IMG/VR virus record: IMGVR_UViG_3300029107_000017 | Strand: one strand, 5' to 3' | DNA from: a virus | Lineage: Duplodnaviria > Heunggongvirae > Uroviricota > Caudoviricetes | Length of the DNA: 4,830 nucleotides | Position numbers and translations under genes: made by a program | Notes under the pieces: generated by a model | Told to the model about the DNA's origin: nothing | The model's database searches: none | Seen by the model: the letters and a program-made list of their open reading frames with translations, nothing else | Part shown: in pieces, positions 1-4,830 of the stretch | How positions within the stretch are numbered: the stretch's first letter is position 1 | Layout: each line of letters opens with the position of its first letter

Positions 1-298
1 TATGGTCAACCTGACAACCCGGTGTCCTCAACGGGGAAGGAATAACCCCGCCATACTTACCGCCGCGCCATTTCGCGGAGTGCCACAACCGGAAGCGCAC
101 GGTCGAAGAAAATTTAACGACAGACTATCTATGAACCAGCAACCTCGCCGTGCGCTTTCGCGTTATGCTCTGACTTTTTATGGAAATACCCTTTCAGTAA
201 ACTGTCAGTGCCGGATGCTCACCCGTGTCCGGCGCACGTACTCCACCTTACCCGTGGAGAACTCCTTAATTACCAACCTTAGCTTCGTTGGTTAGCTA
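1..298 (-). other. Hairpin-rich non-coding region downstream of the ydfC-like gene; no supported ORF
   Basis: Seen in sequence: inverted repeats at 32-50 (CGGGG/CCCCG), 63-78 (CCGCG/CGCGG), 208-237 (GTGCCGGA/TCCGGC-G-CAC), 241-259 (CTCCAC/GTGGAG), 272-292 (ACCAAC/GTTGGT). No ATG-initiated ORF with an RBS on the - strand. In Qin-type prophages a long untranslated spacer precedes the dicF sRNA, but I could not find a DicF-like sequence in the window. Confidence 0.4.
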
Positions 299-517
299 TT
301 AACGCGGGTATGTAATTATTCTGGCAATGCTTAATGCCGCTGCTTTTTCCAGCCTGGTGATATCCTGCTCCAGAGCGGACAGATTTTCAGCCTGCTTAGC
401 CCTGGCTTCATTGGCCCATTTCAGATCCTGCGCTGCATTAATTTTCTGGCGCATCCACTCATAAAGTTCATCATCGGTATAGTCTGGCGCGATGATGATG
501 GGTTCTCGTTTCTGCAT
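299..517 (-). CDS. ydfC: Small prophage protein, YdfC-like (72 aa), unknown function
   Basis: ORF track 299..517 (-). ATG at 517 preceded by GAGGA with a 6-nt spacer. Third gene downstream of the DicA-like repressor; size (72 aa) and position match ydfC of the Qin dicB operon as I recall it. Confidence 0.7.
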   Translation of the reverse strand: MQKREPIIIAPDYTDDELYEWMRQKINAAQDLKWANEARAKQAENLSALEQDITRLEKAAALSIARIITYPR

Positions 518-546
518 ACTGATTCCTCGCGGTGATGTTTCGCTTA

Positions 547-675
547 TCAGCCGTTATATTTTGCCGAACTGGAAAGCGCCTGTTTAAACTCACTGAAGCT
601 GAGAGCTTCTTCGCCTTCGGCAAGGCCTTCGAAGTATTCTTCGTAAGCCTTTTCCATGATTGCGTCGAAATCCAT
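547..675 (-). CDS. ydfB: Small prophage protein, YdfB-like (42 aa), unknown function
   Basis: Not in the ORF track (below its length cutoff). My translation of the - strand: ATG at 675, MDFDAIMEKAYEEYFEGLAEGEEALSFSEFKQALSSSAKYNG, TGA at 547-549. The ATG sits 1 nt after the ydfA-like stop (TGAtATG); AGGTGAG lies upstream. Size and position match ydfB as recalled. Confidence 0.6.
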   Translation of the reverse strand: MDFDAIMEKAYEEYFEGLAEGEEALSFSEFKQALSSSAKYNG

Positions 676-676
676 A

Positions 677-832
677 TCACTCACCTGAATTTCTTTCCAG
701 CCAGCGACGCGCGCCAGTTTCGGTTTTAAACGTTTTGCTTTTGGTATACGTCATCGCGGTGAACGTGCCGTCCTGGTTGGGAAACACGCCGCACACCAGA
801 GATTCGTTGTTGCTAAGATCGATAGTATCCAT
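677..832 (-). CDS. ydfA: Small prophage protein, YdfA-like (51 aa), unknown function
   Basis: Within track ORF 677..886 (-), whose listed start is a GTG at 886. The internal ATG at 832 has GAGG 5 nt upstream and gives 51 aa (MDTIDLSNNESLV...RWLERNSGE), the size I recall for YdfA. Confidence 0.7.
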   Translation of the reverse strand: MDTIDLSNNESLVCGVFPNQDGTFTAMTYTKSKTFKTETGARRWLERNSGE

Positions 833-904
833 GCTGACCTCATTTCCCCTTAACGCCGGGGTAGCGGAACTGTTTGCTGAGAACACCGTGCGGTGTCTTG
901 ATGA

Positions 905-965
905 GTAGAATTTAGAATAACCTAAGAATGATGGTCAAGCTTTTTGTGTAGAAAAACCTAAGTTT
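905..965 (-). promoter_or_regulatory. Putative leftward promoter for the ydfA-like operon, flanked by two operator-like palindromes
   Basis: Read on the - strand: TTGACC (rc of 933-938), 18-nt spacer, TAAATT (rc of 909-914). Palindromes TTTAG-aataac-CTAAG (911-926) and TGTAG-aaaaac-CTAAG (947-962) bracket the -35. No transcript data. Confidence 0.4.
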
Positions 966-1036: not shown

Positions 1037-1444
1037 TTATTTATTTGCGCTTCTTTTGCGAGCTTTGAGTAGTTCTTCAAAAAGTTTGTTGAAATTCTCA
1101 ACTCGAGCACGCATCTCTGACAACAGAGCCTTTTGCTCTGACTCAGGCAGTGCGTCGAACAGTTGAAGCAACTCTTTTTGATCTTCTGTCAGATTGACTG
1201 GCTGATTATCTGGGATCGGTTCGCCTGGTTGCTTATCTTCATCTCCAAAAAGAAGCCAGGTCGGCGAGCACTGAAGCGCCTGGCTCAGTGCGAATAATCT
1301 CTTCCCCGCTGGCTGTGTTTCATCTCTTTCCCATTGAGAAATTGTTACGTGAGCCACTTTGACCAGCTTACCTAATGCGGCCTGAGACAGTTTTAATTTT
1401 TTACGCCTGTATAAGAGGCGAGCACCGAAGGTTTCGTTTTTCAT
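1037..1444 (-). CDS. dicA: DicA-like prophage repressor (XRE-family HTH, 135 aa, no peptidase domain)
   Basis: ORF track 1037..1444 (-). Same length as E. coli DicA (135 aa) and shares long motifs with it as I recall the sequence: SQWER, LFALS..LQCSPTW.LFGDEDKQP, LPESEQ, EMRARV.NFNKLFEELLKAR. Divergent from a Cro-like gene. Confidence 0.85.
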   Translation of the reverse strand: MKNETFGARLLYRRKKLKLSQAALGKLVKVAHVTISQWERDETQPAGKRLFALSQALQCSPTWLLFGDEDKQPGEPIPDNQPVNLTEDQKELLQLFDALPESEQKALLSEMRARVENFNKLFEELLKARKRSANK

Positions 1445-1520
1445 ATTAGGTAATTCTAATTTCTCTTGACTTAGGTTTCTCTACAATCTAGTTTCCTTAG
1501 GAAAATCTAAGGAGTTCGAT
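1445..1520. promoter_or_regulatory. Divergent promoter/operator region between the repressor and the Cro-like gene
   Basis: Three YTTAG-N6-CTAAR sites: ATTAG-gtaatt-CTAAT (1445-1460), CTTAG-gtttct-CTACA (1470-1485), CTTAG-gaaaat-CTAAG (1496-1511), centres about 25 bp apart. Rightward elements: TTGACT (1466-1471), TACAAT (1482-1487), TAAGGAG (1508-1514). Leftward: TAGAAT (rc of 1453-1458) 8 nt before the repressor ATG. Confidence 0.55.
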
Positions 1521-1748
1521 ATGTTGAAAATTGATGCTATAGCGTTTTTTGGCAGCAAAACAAAGCTTGCCAATGTCGCAGGAGTTAGGCTGGCAAGCGT
1601 TGCAGCATGGGGGGAACTGGTTCCTGAAGGTCGCGCGATGCGCCTGCAAGAGGCATCCGGCGGGGAACTTCAGTACGACCCCAAAGTTTATGACGAATAT
1701 CGTAAGGCAAAGCGGGTGGGGCGGTTGAACAATGAAAATCACCCCTGA
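1521..1748 (+). CDS. dicC: Cro/DicC-like small HTH regulator (75 aa)
   Basis: ORF track 1521..1748 (+). TAAGGAG SD with a 6-nt spacer before the ATG. HTH-like segment GSKTKLANVAGVRLASVAAW. Divergent from the DicA-like repressor, as dicC is in Qin. Confidence 0.8.
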   Translation: MLKIDAIAFFGSKTKLANVAGVRLASVAAWGELVPEGRAMRLQEASGGELQYDPKVYDEYRKAKRVGRLNNENHP

Positions 1749-4543: not shown

Positions 4544-4830
4544 TTGCCGGGGGCGCTTATGGCAAAAGTATTTACACAAGAAGAGCGGGAAAAATTAAGG
4601 GGCAGGTTGTTGAACTCGTGCGCCAGAGTGGGCGCGAGACGTTACGACAACTGGAAGCCAAGACAGGTGCGACAAGATATCTGATGAGCATTCTTGCCAG
4701 AGAGTTGGTTGCCAGTGGCGATGTATACAACTCTGGCTATGGGTTATTTCCCTCTGAACAGGCTCGTAAGGATTGGCAAAACGCCCGCAAAAAACTATCC
4801 AGGGCAAAGGTGAAAAAAACGGTTGTGGTT
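4540..4830 (+). CDS. Winged-helix-like protein paralogous to the upstream gene; partial (runs off the window), start ambiguous, possible frameshift
   Basis: The frame with codon starts at 4603, 4606... is open from 4378 to the window end and encodes ...[49 protein letters not shown].... The only start in that frame near the upstream stop is GTG 4540 (GTGA overlap, weak SD). A better-supported ATG at 4559 (GGGGG SD, N-terminus MAKVF like the paralog's METVF) is in another frame and stops at 4682-4684. Confidence 0.5.

What the first reader, a model, noticed from the sequence alone, without database searches (positions are those of the whole stretch)
299..832. Three small tightly coupled genes (51/42/72 aa) of unknown function under repressor control
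The ydfA-like stop and ydfB-like start are 1 nt apart and each gene has its own SD. The middle protein is strongly acidic (MDFDAIMEKAYEEYFEGLAEGEEAL...). This matches the start of the Qin dicB operon, whose known downstream products inhibit cell division. The three small proteins themselves are uncharacterised as far as I know.
Basis: partly seen in the sequence, partly recalled or inferred. Interest (0 to 1): 0.4.

Follow-up and report, generated by a model that had tools for sequence, protein, structure and literature searches.

The report
Known prophage genes ydfA, ydfB, ydfC
These are new alleles of three already named but still uncharacterised small prophage genes (ydfA, ydfB, ydfC) that head the repressor-controlled early operon carrying the DicF/DicB cell-division inhibitors, and one of them (YdfA) turns out to be a free-standing copy of a domain also built into large phage "defence against restriction" proteins.

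Summary
On the minus strand lie ydfA (832..677, 51 aa), ydfB (675..547, 42 aa) and ydfC (517..299, 72 aa). Each has its own Shine-Dalgarno sequence, and ydfA and ydfB are joined by TGA-T-ATG. They are 94-96% identical to E. coli K-12 YdfA/B/C.

They follow a DicA-family repressor that is only 62% identical to K-12 DicA, and a promoter flanked by the repressor's operator motif. The genes are therefore already known, and the literature up to 2024 still calls them functionless.

Added here:
- All three are under purifying selection in the annotated frame (pN/pS 0.16-0.27, below DicB's 0.44).
- Each gene also occurs without the others, in a variable slot just after the repressor, so they are independent cassettes and not one complex.
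- YdfA (DUF1391) is predicted to fold as three beta-strands plus a helix. The same domain sits inside large proteins that carry DarA_N, ddrB-ParB or ArdC-N anti-restriction domains.
- YdfC is a conserved N-terminal peptide followed by one long helix. YdfB is a very acidic mini-protein with a 29-aa conserved core.

Best reading: these are early accessory binding proteins, and YdfA plausibly acts in counter-restriction or early establishment. That role is inferred, not shown. Published operon induction without dicF and dicB is not toxic.

The parts
1037..1444 (-). DicA-family repressor gene (135 aa), upstream of the three genes and on the same strand.
   Evidence: NCBIfam NF007257 DicA at 1.6e-72 over the full length. 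Pfam HTH_3. Only 62% identical to K-12 DicA and 100% identical to the E. coli C8 copy.
1445..1511 (.). Three operator-like sites (1445-1458, 1470-1483, 1498-1511) in the intergenic region between the dicA-like and dicC-like genes.
   Evidence: Motif CTTAGGTTWYTCTA with up to 2 mismatches gives 5 sites in the window, against 0.07 expected by chance.
909..938 (-). Promoter-like site TTGACC-18 nt-TAAATT, the equivalent of dicBp and of a lambdoid pL.
   Evidence: Promoter scan. The -35 CTTGACC sits at the same place in K-12, whereas the surrounding operators differ. In K-12 this promoter is repressed 22-fold by DicA (PMC10448788).
913..962 (-). Two exact operator-like sites. 913-926 overlaps the -10 hexamer and 949-962 lies just upstream of the -35.
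   Evidence: The same motif occurs in the dicA-dicC intergenic region, so the local repressor is expected to occlude this promoter. This is an inference.
833..905 (-). Conserved 5' untranslated leader of ydfA, including the SD GAGG at 841-838. The mosaic joint with the immunity module lies at about 900-905.
   Evidence: Identical to K-12 from CATCAA.ACACCGCACGG down to the ATG, although the operators upstream are unrelated. The leader and SD are conserved in about 150 loci.
677..832 (-). ydfA, 51 aa, a free-standing DUF1391 domain.
   Evidence: Pfam PF07151 at 2.5e-28. 94% identical to K-12 YdfA. pN/pS 0.16. AlphaFold2 pLDDT 79, with strands at 15-18, 24-27 and 32-35 and a helix at 38-48. The same domain occurs inside proteins with DarA_N, ddrB-ParB or ArdC-N domains.
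547..675 (-). ydfB, 42 aa, an acidic mini-protein. Its start is 1 nt after the ydfA stop, and its SD AGGTGAG (686-680) lies inside ydfA.
   Evidence: 95% identical to K-12 YdfB. phrog_2061 at 3e-25. pI 4.05. pN/pS 0.26. A conserved 29-aa core is also found in Salmonella, Cronobacter and Citrobacter.
299..517 (-). ydfC, 72 aa, with SD GAGGA at 528-524.
   Evidence: 96% identical to K-12 YdfC. phrog_1744 at 2e-38. pN/pS 0.27. AlphaFold2 pLDDT 86 gives one helix over residues 15-69 and an extended N-terminus. The N-terminal motif IIAPDYTDDELYEWM is essentially invariant, while the helix diverges to 56% identity.
1..298 (-). Untranslated spacer between ydfC and DicF, the precursor region of the polycistronic RNA. 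DicF itself lies outside the window.
   Evidence: No Rfam match inside the window. The spacer is about 95-97% identical to K-12, C8 and HCP4S3, and in all three DicF begins 43 nt past window position 1.
1521..1748 (+). dicC-like (Cro-type) gene, divergent from the repressor. It completes the immunity module.
   Evidence: NCBIfam DicC at 3.6e-49. Pfam P22_Cro.

Best explanation
Shown. The three ORFs are genuine, separately conserved protein-coding genes: alleles of ydfA, ydfB and ydfC. They form the 5' end of the early-left (pL-type) operon of a DicA/DicC-immunity lambdoid prophage.

From sequence plus published K-12 work. In the lysogen, the DicA-family repressor sits on operators that bracket the promoter at 938-909 and keeps the operon silent. 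On derepression or fresh infection, one transcript is made that carries ydfA, ydfB (translationally coupled to ydfA), ydfC, a conserved spacer, DicF and then a division inhibitor (dicB or kil).

Inferred. The three products are small non-enzymatic binding proteins that act independently, as interchangeable early accessory cassettes.
- YdfA is a solo DUF1391 domain of three beta-strands and a helix, with invariant GNNE and SKxFKT motifs and a basic patch. The same domain is built into large phage proteins containing DarA_N and ddrB-ParB, and into ArdC-N/DUF3560 proteins from metagenomic contigs. It most likely serves the earliest phase of invasion, in counter-restriction or establishment, by binding incoming DNA or a host defence complex.
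- YdfB is a very acidic mini-protein with a conserved 29-aa core, read by eye as two amphipathic helices. It most likely blocks a basic, possibly nucleic-acid-binding, surface.
- YdfC presents an invariant N-terminal peptide on a long, probably coiled-coil, helix. It most likely acts as an oligomeric adaptor or inhibitor.

None of the three is a growth or division inhibitor at chromosomal expression levels.
For: Gene reality:
- Intact ORFs and pN/pS of 0.16, 0.26 and 0.27 in frame, against 0.7 or more out of frame and 0.44 for DicB.
- Conserved SDs and junctions.
- 94-96% identity to the K-12 proteins.

Operon and control:
- DicA and DicC families, promoter and the operator motif found 5 times against 0.07 expected.
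- K-12 data show DicA repression and a ydfABC-dicF(-dicB-ydfD) transcript (PMC10448788).
- The complete phage Tritos carries int-xis-exo-ydfD-dicB-DicF-ydfC-ydfB-ydfA-cI.

Independence of the cassettes:
- ydfA alone in Rac (as ydaF), mEp460, Serratia phage OS31 and others.
- ydfB without ydfA in Cronobacter phage phiES15.
- ydfC without ydfA or ydfB in the PPompW phages.
- The slot is filled by other small genes of unknown function in E. ruysiae and mEp460.
- The cargo is 94-96% conserved across heteroimmune repressors, with a joint at the transcription start.

DUF1391 link:
- A profile search of 1.84 billion representatives finds 330 clusters.
- 16 of the best 150 are true members longer than 200 aa. 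Five carry DarA_N (1e-30 to 1e-37) and two carry ArdC-N plus DUF3560.
- P0481 (1572 aa) has DarA_N + DUF1391 + ddrB-ParB and sits on an 85-kb contig.
- The DarA_N part is homologous to P1 DarA, annotated 'released from the phage upon host infection'.
- Iyer et al. 2017 argue that such polyvalent proteins, and solo forms of their domains, act in the earliest phase of invasion (PMC5512222).

Structure.

Not toxic: induction of the operon lacking dicF and dicB, with ydfABC and ydfD still present, gives wild-type growth, viability and shape (PMC5069750).
Against: - No experiment or homology links any of the three proteins to a defined target.
- The anti-restriction reading rests on domain co-occurrence alone. 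Only 7 of the 16 long DUF1391 proteins had a recognisable DarA_N or ArdC-N domain; an eighth looks like a fragment of one.
- P1 DarA itself shows no DUF1391.
- The E. coli and Providencia plasmid DUF3560 proteins that were checked lack DUF1391.
- PADLOC, NCBIfam and PDB sequence searches gave nothing for the three proteins.
- For YdfB and YdfC there is no functional clue beyond composition, predicted shape and position. No structure prediction was run for YdfB.
- Rac already has a dedicated restriction-alleviation gene as well as ydaF (my own knowledge, not tested here).
Confidence: 0.5

Rival explanations
1. The three proteins form one unit, either a stoichiometric complex or a toxin-antitoxin-like module, as the 1-nt translational coupling and a possible basic-acidic pairing of YdfA and YdfB might suggest.
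For: The TGA-T-ATG junction is kept in 148 of 151 loci. YdfA has a conserved basic patch (K31, K33, K36, R42, R43) and YdfB has a net charge of -7.5. The full trio is the commonest arrangement in the loci sampled, although those loci were fetched by similarity to ydfB or ydfC.
Against: - Each gene occurs without the others in live phages and prophages.
- In 12 of the 17 species-level loci found through YdfA, neither ydfB nor ydfC is present.
- There are no hits to TA or defence families.
- Induction of ydfABC without dicF and dicB is not toxic (PMC5069750).
Confidence: 0.12
2. The ORFs matter mainly as translated spacers. Ribosomes on ydfABC would protect the long precursor from Rho termination or RNase attack so that DicF and DicB are made, and the protein products would be incidental.
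For: DicF is processed from the polycistronic transcript that starts upstream of ydfA, and RNase E and RNase III affect the stability of the ydfA portion (PMC10448788). The ydfC-DicF spacer is extremely conserved.
Against: - There is clear amino-acid-level purifying selection, stronger than on DicB.
- DUF1391 is conserved as a protein domain across hundreds of clusters and inside unrelated large proteins.
- ydfB occurs in Cronobacter phage phiES15 and ydfA in Serratia phage OS31, whose annotated regions show no dicB and no annotated DicF; these loci were not scanned with Rfam.
Confidence: 0.08
3. YdfA is a small sequence-specific DNA-binding regulator of phage development with an AP2- or integrase-arm-binding-like fold. 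It would occupy the 'first gene after the repressor' position much as N or a Cro-like factor does.
For: - 1gcc has one of the higher TM-scores among the Foldseek PDB hits (0.56).
- Phage HNH endonucleases appear among the BFVD hits. HNH endonucleases often carry AP2 domains (my own knowledge).
- YdfA is the first gene after the repressor in Qin-type prophages and in Serratia phage OS31.
Against: - No structural match reaches significance.
- Profile-profile comparison of DUF1391 with AP2 domains gives 3% probability over only 18 columns.
- The protein is slightly acidic overall and lacks an arginine-rich motif.
- In Rac, ydaG precedes it.
- In other phages it lies among replication or small early genes.
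Confidence: 0.15
4. The three proteins contribute to the cell-division block or lysis caused by the operon, like DicB, DicF and YdfD.
For: They are co-transcribed with DicF and DicB. A filamentation-enrichment screen in UTI89 recovered a fragment spanning exoO to dicC that includes ydfABC (PMC6206680).
Against: The same operon induced without dicF and dicB gives normal growth, CFU counts and morphology (PMC5069750). The enriched UTI89 fragment also contains dicB and dicF, which are sufficient to explain it.
Confidence: 0.04

Closest known systems
E. coli K-12 Qin prophage ydfA-ydfB-ydfC (b1571-b1573), the promoter-proximal genes of the dicBF operon
   Same: - Same gene order, lengths (51, 42 and 72 aa), junctions and 5' leader.
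- 94%, 95% and 96% protein identity.
- Same position after a DicA-family repressor and before the DicF spacer.
   Different: - The repressor is only 62% identical and the operators differ, so the immunity is different.
- The window sits in an apparently more complete prophage with replication genes.
- DicF and dicB lie outside the window.
Rac prophage YdaF (DUF1391) with its neighbour YdaG
   Same: YdaF is a 51-aa DUF1391 protein about 88% identical to the window's YdfA. It lies just downstream of the prophage repressor on the same strand.
   Different: - The repressor is RacR, not DicA.
- YdaF is preceded by ydaG, a UBA-like protein of about 44 aa, and followed by sieB and kilR.
- There is no ydfB or ydfC.
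Phage P1 Dar (defence against restriction) proteins and the 'polyvalent proteins' of Iyer et al. 2017
   Same: DUF1391 is an internal domain of large proteins that carry DarA_N, ddrB-ParB or ArdC-N domains. Those proteins are proposed to act at the earliest moment of invasion, as early-operon genes also do (PMC5512222).
   Different: - YdfA is a free-standing 51-aa protein made after DNA entry. It is not a packaged or transferred multidomain protein.
- P1 DarA itself has no detectable DUF1391.
- DUF1391 is not mentioned in that paper.
- No anti-restriction activity has been tested.
Lambda and P22 early-left accessory genes (ral, cIII, kil, gam, sieB)
   Same: They are small non-essential proteins in the repressor-controlled leftward early operon, next to a division inhibitor. 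They are mosaic and interchangeable between phages. This comparison rests on established knowledge of lambdoid phages.
   Different: There is no sequence or family relationship. The functions of ydfABC are unknown.
AP2/ERF DNA-binding domain
   Same: Three antiparallel strands packed on a C-terminal helix. Superposition gives 1.2-1.7 A over 37 residues.

Membership tests
DUF1391 (Pfam PF07151) / YdfA-YdaF family | Match to the family HMM above the curated cut-off. | tested here: met
   97.9 bits against a cut-off of 27.3, covering profile positions 1-48 of 48. 94% identical to K-12 YdfA.
YdfB (K-12 b1572; phrog_2061) | Full-length similarity to the 42-aa YdfB protein. | tested here: met
   95% identity over 42 aa. 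phrog_2061 at 3.2e-25. Neither Pfam nor NCBIfam gave a match for this protein.
YdfC (K-12 b1573; phrog_1744) | Full-length similarity to the 72-aa YdfC protein. | tested here: met
   96% identity over 72 aa. phrog_1744 at 2e-38.
Qin-type dicBF operon | A DicA-family repressor upstream on the same strand, with a divergent DicC. | tested here: met
   NCBIfam DicA at 241.6 bits and DicC at 164.9 bits.
Qin-type dicBF operon | A repressible promoter with operators between dicA and ydfA. | tested here: met
   Promoter-like site at 938-909. Operator motif at 913-926 and 949-962, shared with the dicA-dicC region. The -35 element aligns with that of K-12. Actual repression was not tested.
Qin-type dicBF operon | DicF sRNA downstream of ydfC, followed by dicB and ydfD. 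| tested here: inconclusive
   No DicF inside the window. The spacer is 95-97% identical to three relatives in which DicF begins 43 nt beyond the window edge. The gene after DicF is dicB in K-12 and C8 but kil in HCP4S3.
Polyvalent-protein / Dar- or ArdC-type anti-restriction modules | The domain occurs within multidomain proteins alongside DarA_N, ddrB-ParB or ArdC-N. | tested here: met
   P0417, P0422, P0425, P0427, P0434 and P0481 have DarA_N plus DUF1391, and P0481 also has ddrB-ParB. P0428 and P0446 have ArdC-N plus DUF1391 plus DUF3560.
Polyvalent-protein / Dar- or ArdC-type anti-restriction modules | Protection of incoming DNA from restriction. | not testable with these tools
   This requires plating or transformation assays on restricting hosts.
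AP2/ERF (or integrase arm-binding) DNA-binding domain | Significant structural or profile similarity to AP2 domains. | tested here: not met
Toxin-antitoxin module | A toxic component with a cognate neutraliser, and membership of known TA families. | tested here: not met
   No TA family in Pfam, NCBIfam or PADLOC. Induction of the operon without dicF and dicB is non-toxic (PMC5069750). The genes occur singly.
Lambda N-type antiterminator (first gene of pL operon) | An arginine-rich RNA-binding motif at the N-terminus, in a basic protein. | tested here: not met
   The YdfA N-terminus is MDTIDLSNNES, and the protein has net charge -1.5 and pI 5.2.
Phage head decoration protein D/SHP (label found on ydfA in some phage records) | Homology to gpD/SHP. 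| tested here: not met
   There is only a 20-residue match to 1td0. It scores E 0.012 with a narrow profile and weakens to 0.83 with a diverse family profile.

The most novel reading that the evidence does not exclude
DUF1391 (YdfA/YdaF) would be an unrecognised counter-restriction or early-establishment effector domain that mobile elements deploy in two formats:
- fused into injected Dar-type or transferred ArdC-type polyvalent proteins;
- as a free 50-aa protein encoded at the very start of the early operon of temperate phages.

On this reading, ydfB and ydfC are further counter-defence cassettes in the same hypervariable slot just after the repressor.
Probability: 0.3. Interest if true: 0.65.

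Novelty: already known. Interest (0 to 1): 0.35.

Why it matters
ydfA, ydfB and ydfC are among the uncharacterised 'y-ome' genes of E. coli K-12. Parts of a 1.5-kb query spanning this region match 4370 of 5426 complete E. coli genomes. The genes ride on the same transcript as DicF and DicB, two well-studied prophage products that alter host division, metabolism and phage susceptibility.

This work shows three things:
- all three are under purifying selection;
- they are independent cassettes;
- YdfA shares a domain with DarA-, DdrB- and ArdC-type proteins.

Together these turn 'unknown function' into a specific, cheap experiment: restriction-alleviation and defence-evasion assays. If the lead holds, it would add a widespread mini-domain to the anti-defence repertoire and explain why cryptic prophages retain this operon head. 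If it fails, the genes remain ordinary conserved phage ORFs of unknown function.

Tried and rejected
- Rfam scan of the window found no RNA family, so DicF is not inside it.
- NCBIfam and PADLOC gave no family for the three proteins. The AbiEi hit at E 0.034 is noise.
- PDB sequence searches with profiles of each protein gave nothing significant.
- The 20-aa match of YdfA to head decoration protein SHP/gpD explains a misleading label in phage records. It weakens with a broader profile, so I treat it as chance.
- The AP2-like idea was tested by profile-profile comparison and not supported. It was also absent from a Pfam scan at E up to 10.
- No fold search was run for YdfC, because a single long helix is uninformative.
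- The coiled-coil neighbour of ydfB in phiES15 (gp10) is not related to YdfC.
- Alternative cargo genes in the same slot all fall in PHROGs of unknown function, so they give no clue.
- DUF3560 proteins on E. coli and Providencia plasmids lack DUF1391.
- The 'ydfA' of the IncI-type plasmid in PMC12111858 appears to be only a shared name. I did not follow it up by sequence.
- An evolved YdfC-GFP variant acts as a transcription factor in yeast, but the wild type was inactive, so this says nothing about native function.
- ASKA-screen hits of ydfA and ydfB for oxidant resistance, and induction of the ydfA promoter by an ionic liquid, are noted but are not mechanistic.
Full report
**What is there.** The window is the immunity and early region of a lambdoid prophage of Escherichia. 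Over its full length it is 97.3% identical to prophages in E. coli CFSAN018748 and HCP4S3_I4. Parts of its first 1.5 kb match 4370 of 5426 complete E. coli genomes.

On the minus strand, in order:
- a 135-aa repressor gene (1444..1037);
- a promoter-like site, TTGACC-18-TAAATT (938..909);
- ydfA (832..677, 51 aa);
- ydfB (675..547, 42 aa);
- ydfC (517..299, 72 aa);
- 298 nt without a credible ORF.

On the plus strand lie a Cro-type dicC-like gene, a YdaT/CII-like gene, replication O- and P-like genes and a DUF1627 gene.

**Check of the observation.**
- The lengths are 51, 42 and 72 aa.
- The ydfA stop and the ydfB start are separated by one base (TGA T ATG).
- Each gene has a Shine-Dalgarno sequence: GAGG 5 nt before the ydfA ATG, AGGTGAG inside the end of ydfA for ydfB, and GAGGA 6 nt before ydfC.
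- YdfB is strongly acidic, with pI 4.05 and net charge about -7.5.
- The proteins are 94%, 95% and 96% identical to K-12 YdfA, YdfB and YdfC.
- YdfA matches Pfam DUF1391 at 97.9 bits, and all three match PHROGs of unknown function.

**Are they real genes?** I collected 179 related loci from species-representative genomes and from IMG/VR.
- The ORFs are intact at full length in 155/164, 151/153 and 156/162 copies.
- Among 50, 29 and 54 distinct alleles, pN/pS in the annotated frame is 0.16 for ydfA, 0.26 for ydfB and 0.27 for ydfC. The two other frames give 0.7-6.1, and the characterised DicB protein gives 0.44.
- The 1-nt ydfA/ydfB junction is kept in 148 of 151 loci and the 29-nt ydfB/ydfC spacer in 142 of 147.

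One caveat applies: the alleles are related and the pairwise sums are not independent, so these ratios are descriptive.

**Repressor control.**
- The upstream gene is a DicA-family repressor (NCBIfam 241.6 bits) and its divergent neighbour is DicC-like.
- The motif CTTAGGTTWYTCTA occurs five times in the window against 0.07 expected. Two copies bracket the ydfA promoter, one of them overlapping the -10. Three lie between the repressor gene and the cro-like gene.
- The repressor is only 62% identical to K-12 DicA and the K-12 operators are unrelated. Even so, the -35 CTTGACC aligns, and from about position 900 down to the ydfA ATG the two sequences are virtually identical.

So a heteroimmune control module has been swapped onto the same cargo, with the joint at the start of the transcript. 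In K-12, deletion of dicA derepresses this promoter 22-fold, and probes detect ydfABC-dicF and ydfABC-dicFB-ydfD transcripts (PMC10448788).

**The rest of the operon.** DicF is not in the window. The 298-nt spacer after ydfC is 95-97% identical to those of K-12, C8 and HCP4S3, and in all three DicF begins 43 nt beyond window position 1. After DicF come dicB and ydfD in K-12 and C8, but a Rac-type kil gene in HCP4S3. Escherichia phage Tritos, deposited as a complete 46-kb genome, carries int-xis-exonuclease-ydfD-dicB-DicF-ydfC-ydfB-ydfA-cI. The 'dicBF operon' is therefore the early-left operon of what appear to be complete lambdoid phages, not a peculiarity of a decayed prophage.

**What is already known.** Papers from 2016 to 2024 name ydfA, ydfB and ydfC as the promoter-proximal genes of this operon and state that their function is unknown (PMC5069750, PMC10448788, PMC11430063; y-ome review PMC11551758). 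When the chromosomal operon is driven from Plac with dicF and dicB deleted, and ydfABC and ydfD still present, growth, viability and cell shape are normal (PMC5069750). The three proteins are therefore not division inhibitors or toxins at that expression level. The term DUF1391 occurs in only one paper of the library, a Shigella/EIEC genome-wide association study that I did not open.

**Independent cassettes, not a trio.** Each gene is found without the others.
- ydfA-type genes alone follow the repressor in Rac (racR-ydaG-ydaF), in mEp460, in Serratia phage OS31 and in several Escherichia species.
- ydfB, without ydfA, is the first conserved ORF after the DicA-like repressor of Cronobacter phage phiES15, where it is coupled to an unrelated 95-aa helical protein.
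- ydfC sits between two other small genes in the PPompW phages.
- In E. ruysiae and mEp460, a protein of 121-125 aa (phrog_33007) replaces ydfB and ydfC; E. ruysiae also has an opposite-strand 95-aa ORF there.
- One variant protein shows ydfB directly behind the ydfA leader (P0222).

The region between the repressor and DicF is thus a variable slot that holds interchangeable small genes, all of unknown function.

**Anatomy of the proteins.**
- YdfA: AlphaFold2 gives pLDDT 79, with three short strands (15-18, 24-27, 32-35) and a C-terminal helix (38-48).
- YdfC: pLDDT 86, with an extended N-terminus and a single helix over residues 15-69. Its N-terminal motif IIAPDYTDDELYEWM is essentially invariant, while the helix diverges to 56% identity yet keeps a hydrophobic heptad stripe. 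This suggests a conserved binding peptide on an oligomerising helix.
- YdfB: it has a 29-residue conserved core, M.KAYE.YF..L.EGEEALSFSEF.QA.S, and is found in Escherichia, Salmonella, Cronobacter and Citrobacter, with 29-aa short forms as well. By eye it reads as two amphipathic helices. No structure prediction was run for it.
- YdfC homologues are confined almost entirely to Escherichia.

**The new lead.** I searched 1.84 billion representative proteins with a DUF1391 profile.
- The search found 330 clusters at E of 1e-3 or better, and 111 at 1e-10 or better.
- Most are solo proteins of 45-150 aa. Sixteen true members among the best 150 are 200-935 aa long, with the domain internal.
- Pfam scans show DarA_N ('defence against restriction A, N-terminal', E 1e-30 to 1e-37) in five of these. 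Two have ArdC-N plus DUF3560 flanking DUF1391.
- A 1572-aa cluster member has DarA_N + DUF1391 + ddrB-ParB and lies on an 85-kb contig.
- One protein has two DUF1391 copies.
- The DarA_N part is homologous to phage P1 DarA, which is annotated as released from the virion on infection. P1 DarA itself shows no DUF1391.
- Across the family, the nearly invariant positions spell D.GNNE...G....DG.F.A.T..SK.FKT..GA..W.

Iyer et al. 2017 describe such 'polyvalent proteins' as effectors delivered with the invading DNA. They note that solo forms of their domains probably also facilitate the early phase of invasion (PMC5512222). They do not mention DUF1391. Solo DUF1391 genes in other phages also lie in early regions.

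**How far this goes.** The link is guilt by domain association.
- Only 7 of the 16 long proteins had a recognisable anti-restriction-type domain; an eighth looks like a fragment of one.
- Fold searches gave no significant match.
- The label 'head-DNA stabilization protein D' attached to ydfA in some phage records comes from a 20-residue chance match.

**Verdict.** The finding is an accurate re-identification of known but uncharacterised genes. My best-supported mechanism is this: three independent early accessory binding proteins, made only when the DicA-type repressor is lifted or on infection, with YdfA most plausibly acting in counter-restriction or establishment.
- Gene reality and operon membership are shown.
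- Independence of the three genes is well supported.
- The counter-defence role is inferred, at roughly 30%.
- The roles of YdfB and YdfC remain guesses from composition and shape.

Noticed in passing
window 4559-4830 (+): A DUF977-family gene appears frameshifted in an A-run near 4590. The ORF from 4559 stops at 4684, while the rest of the protein continues in another frame to the window end. The same gene is annotated 'DUF977 family protein, frameshifted' in the nearest relative (L184 6057-6474).
   Followed up: partly
protein P0064 (JGI metagenome), relating window 4559-4625 to window 299-445: This is a chimeric protein. The N-terminus of the DUF977-type gene ([11 protein letters not shown]...VELVRQ) is joined to YdfC residues 25-72. 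By my reading of the window sequence, both genes carry the 9-nt string TGCGCCAGA at the joint, which suggests microhomology-mediated recombination between the two ends of this region.
   Followed up: no
window 1-298 (-), and beyond the left edge: The untranslated ydfC-DicF spacer is 95-97% identical across K-12, C8 and HCP4S3, at least as conserved as the coding genes. It contains two hairpins right after ydfC (about 250-295). DicF would start 43 nt beyond the window.
   Followed up: partly
L184 993-1217 (E. coli HCP4S3_I4, the closest full-length relative): In this relative, the gene after DicF is a Rac-type kil gene and not dicB-ydfD. The division-inhibitor cargo downstream of ydfABC-DicF is therefore itself interchangeable.
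   Followed up: no
window about 900-905: There is a sharp mosaic joint. Downstream of it, covering the ydfA leader and ydfABC, the window is near-identical to K-12. Upstream, the operators and repressor are unrelated or only 62% identical, although the -35 CTTGACC is kept.
   Followed up: yes
phage records ON470580.1, PV340562.1, ON470583.1 and others: ydfA is annotated 'head-DNA stabilization protein D' in these records. The label traces to a 20-residue similarity with SHP/gpD (1td0). That match weakens from E 0.012 to 0.83 with a broader family profile, so the annotation is spurious.
   Followed up: yes
L008 3859-3990 (Rac prophage ydaG): The small protein that precedes ydaF in Rac matches a UBA-like domain (Pfam UBA_4, E 2.8e-5, above its cut-off), which is unexpected for a prophage mini-protein.
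   Followed up: no
L001 5754-5894 (between DicF and dicB in E. coli C8): There is a sub-threshold Rfam match to the sRNA family STnc100 (38.8 bits against a gathering score of 47, E 2.7e-6).
   Followed up: no
window 677-886 (-): Gene callers often extend ydfA to upstream GTG or other starts, giving proteins of 65-86 aa. The 51-aa form starting at ATG 832 is supported by three things: the SD, homologues in other genera that begin at the equivalent residue, and a ydfA-deleted variant in which the same 'extension' is fused to ydfB.
   Followed up: partly
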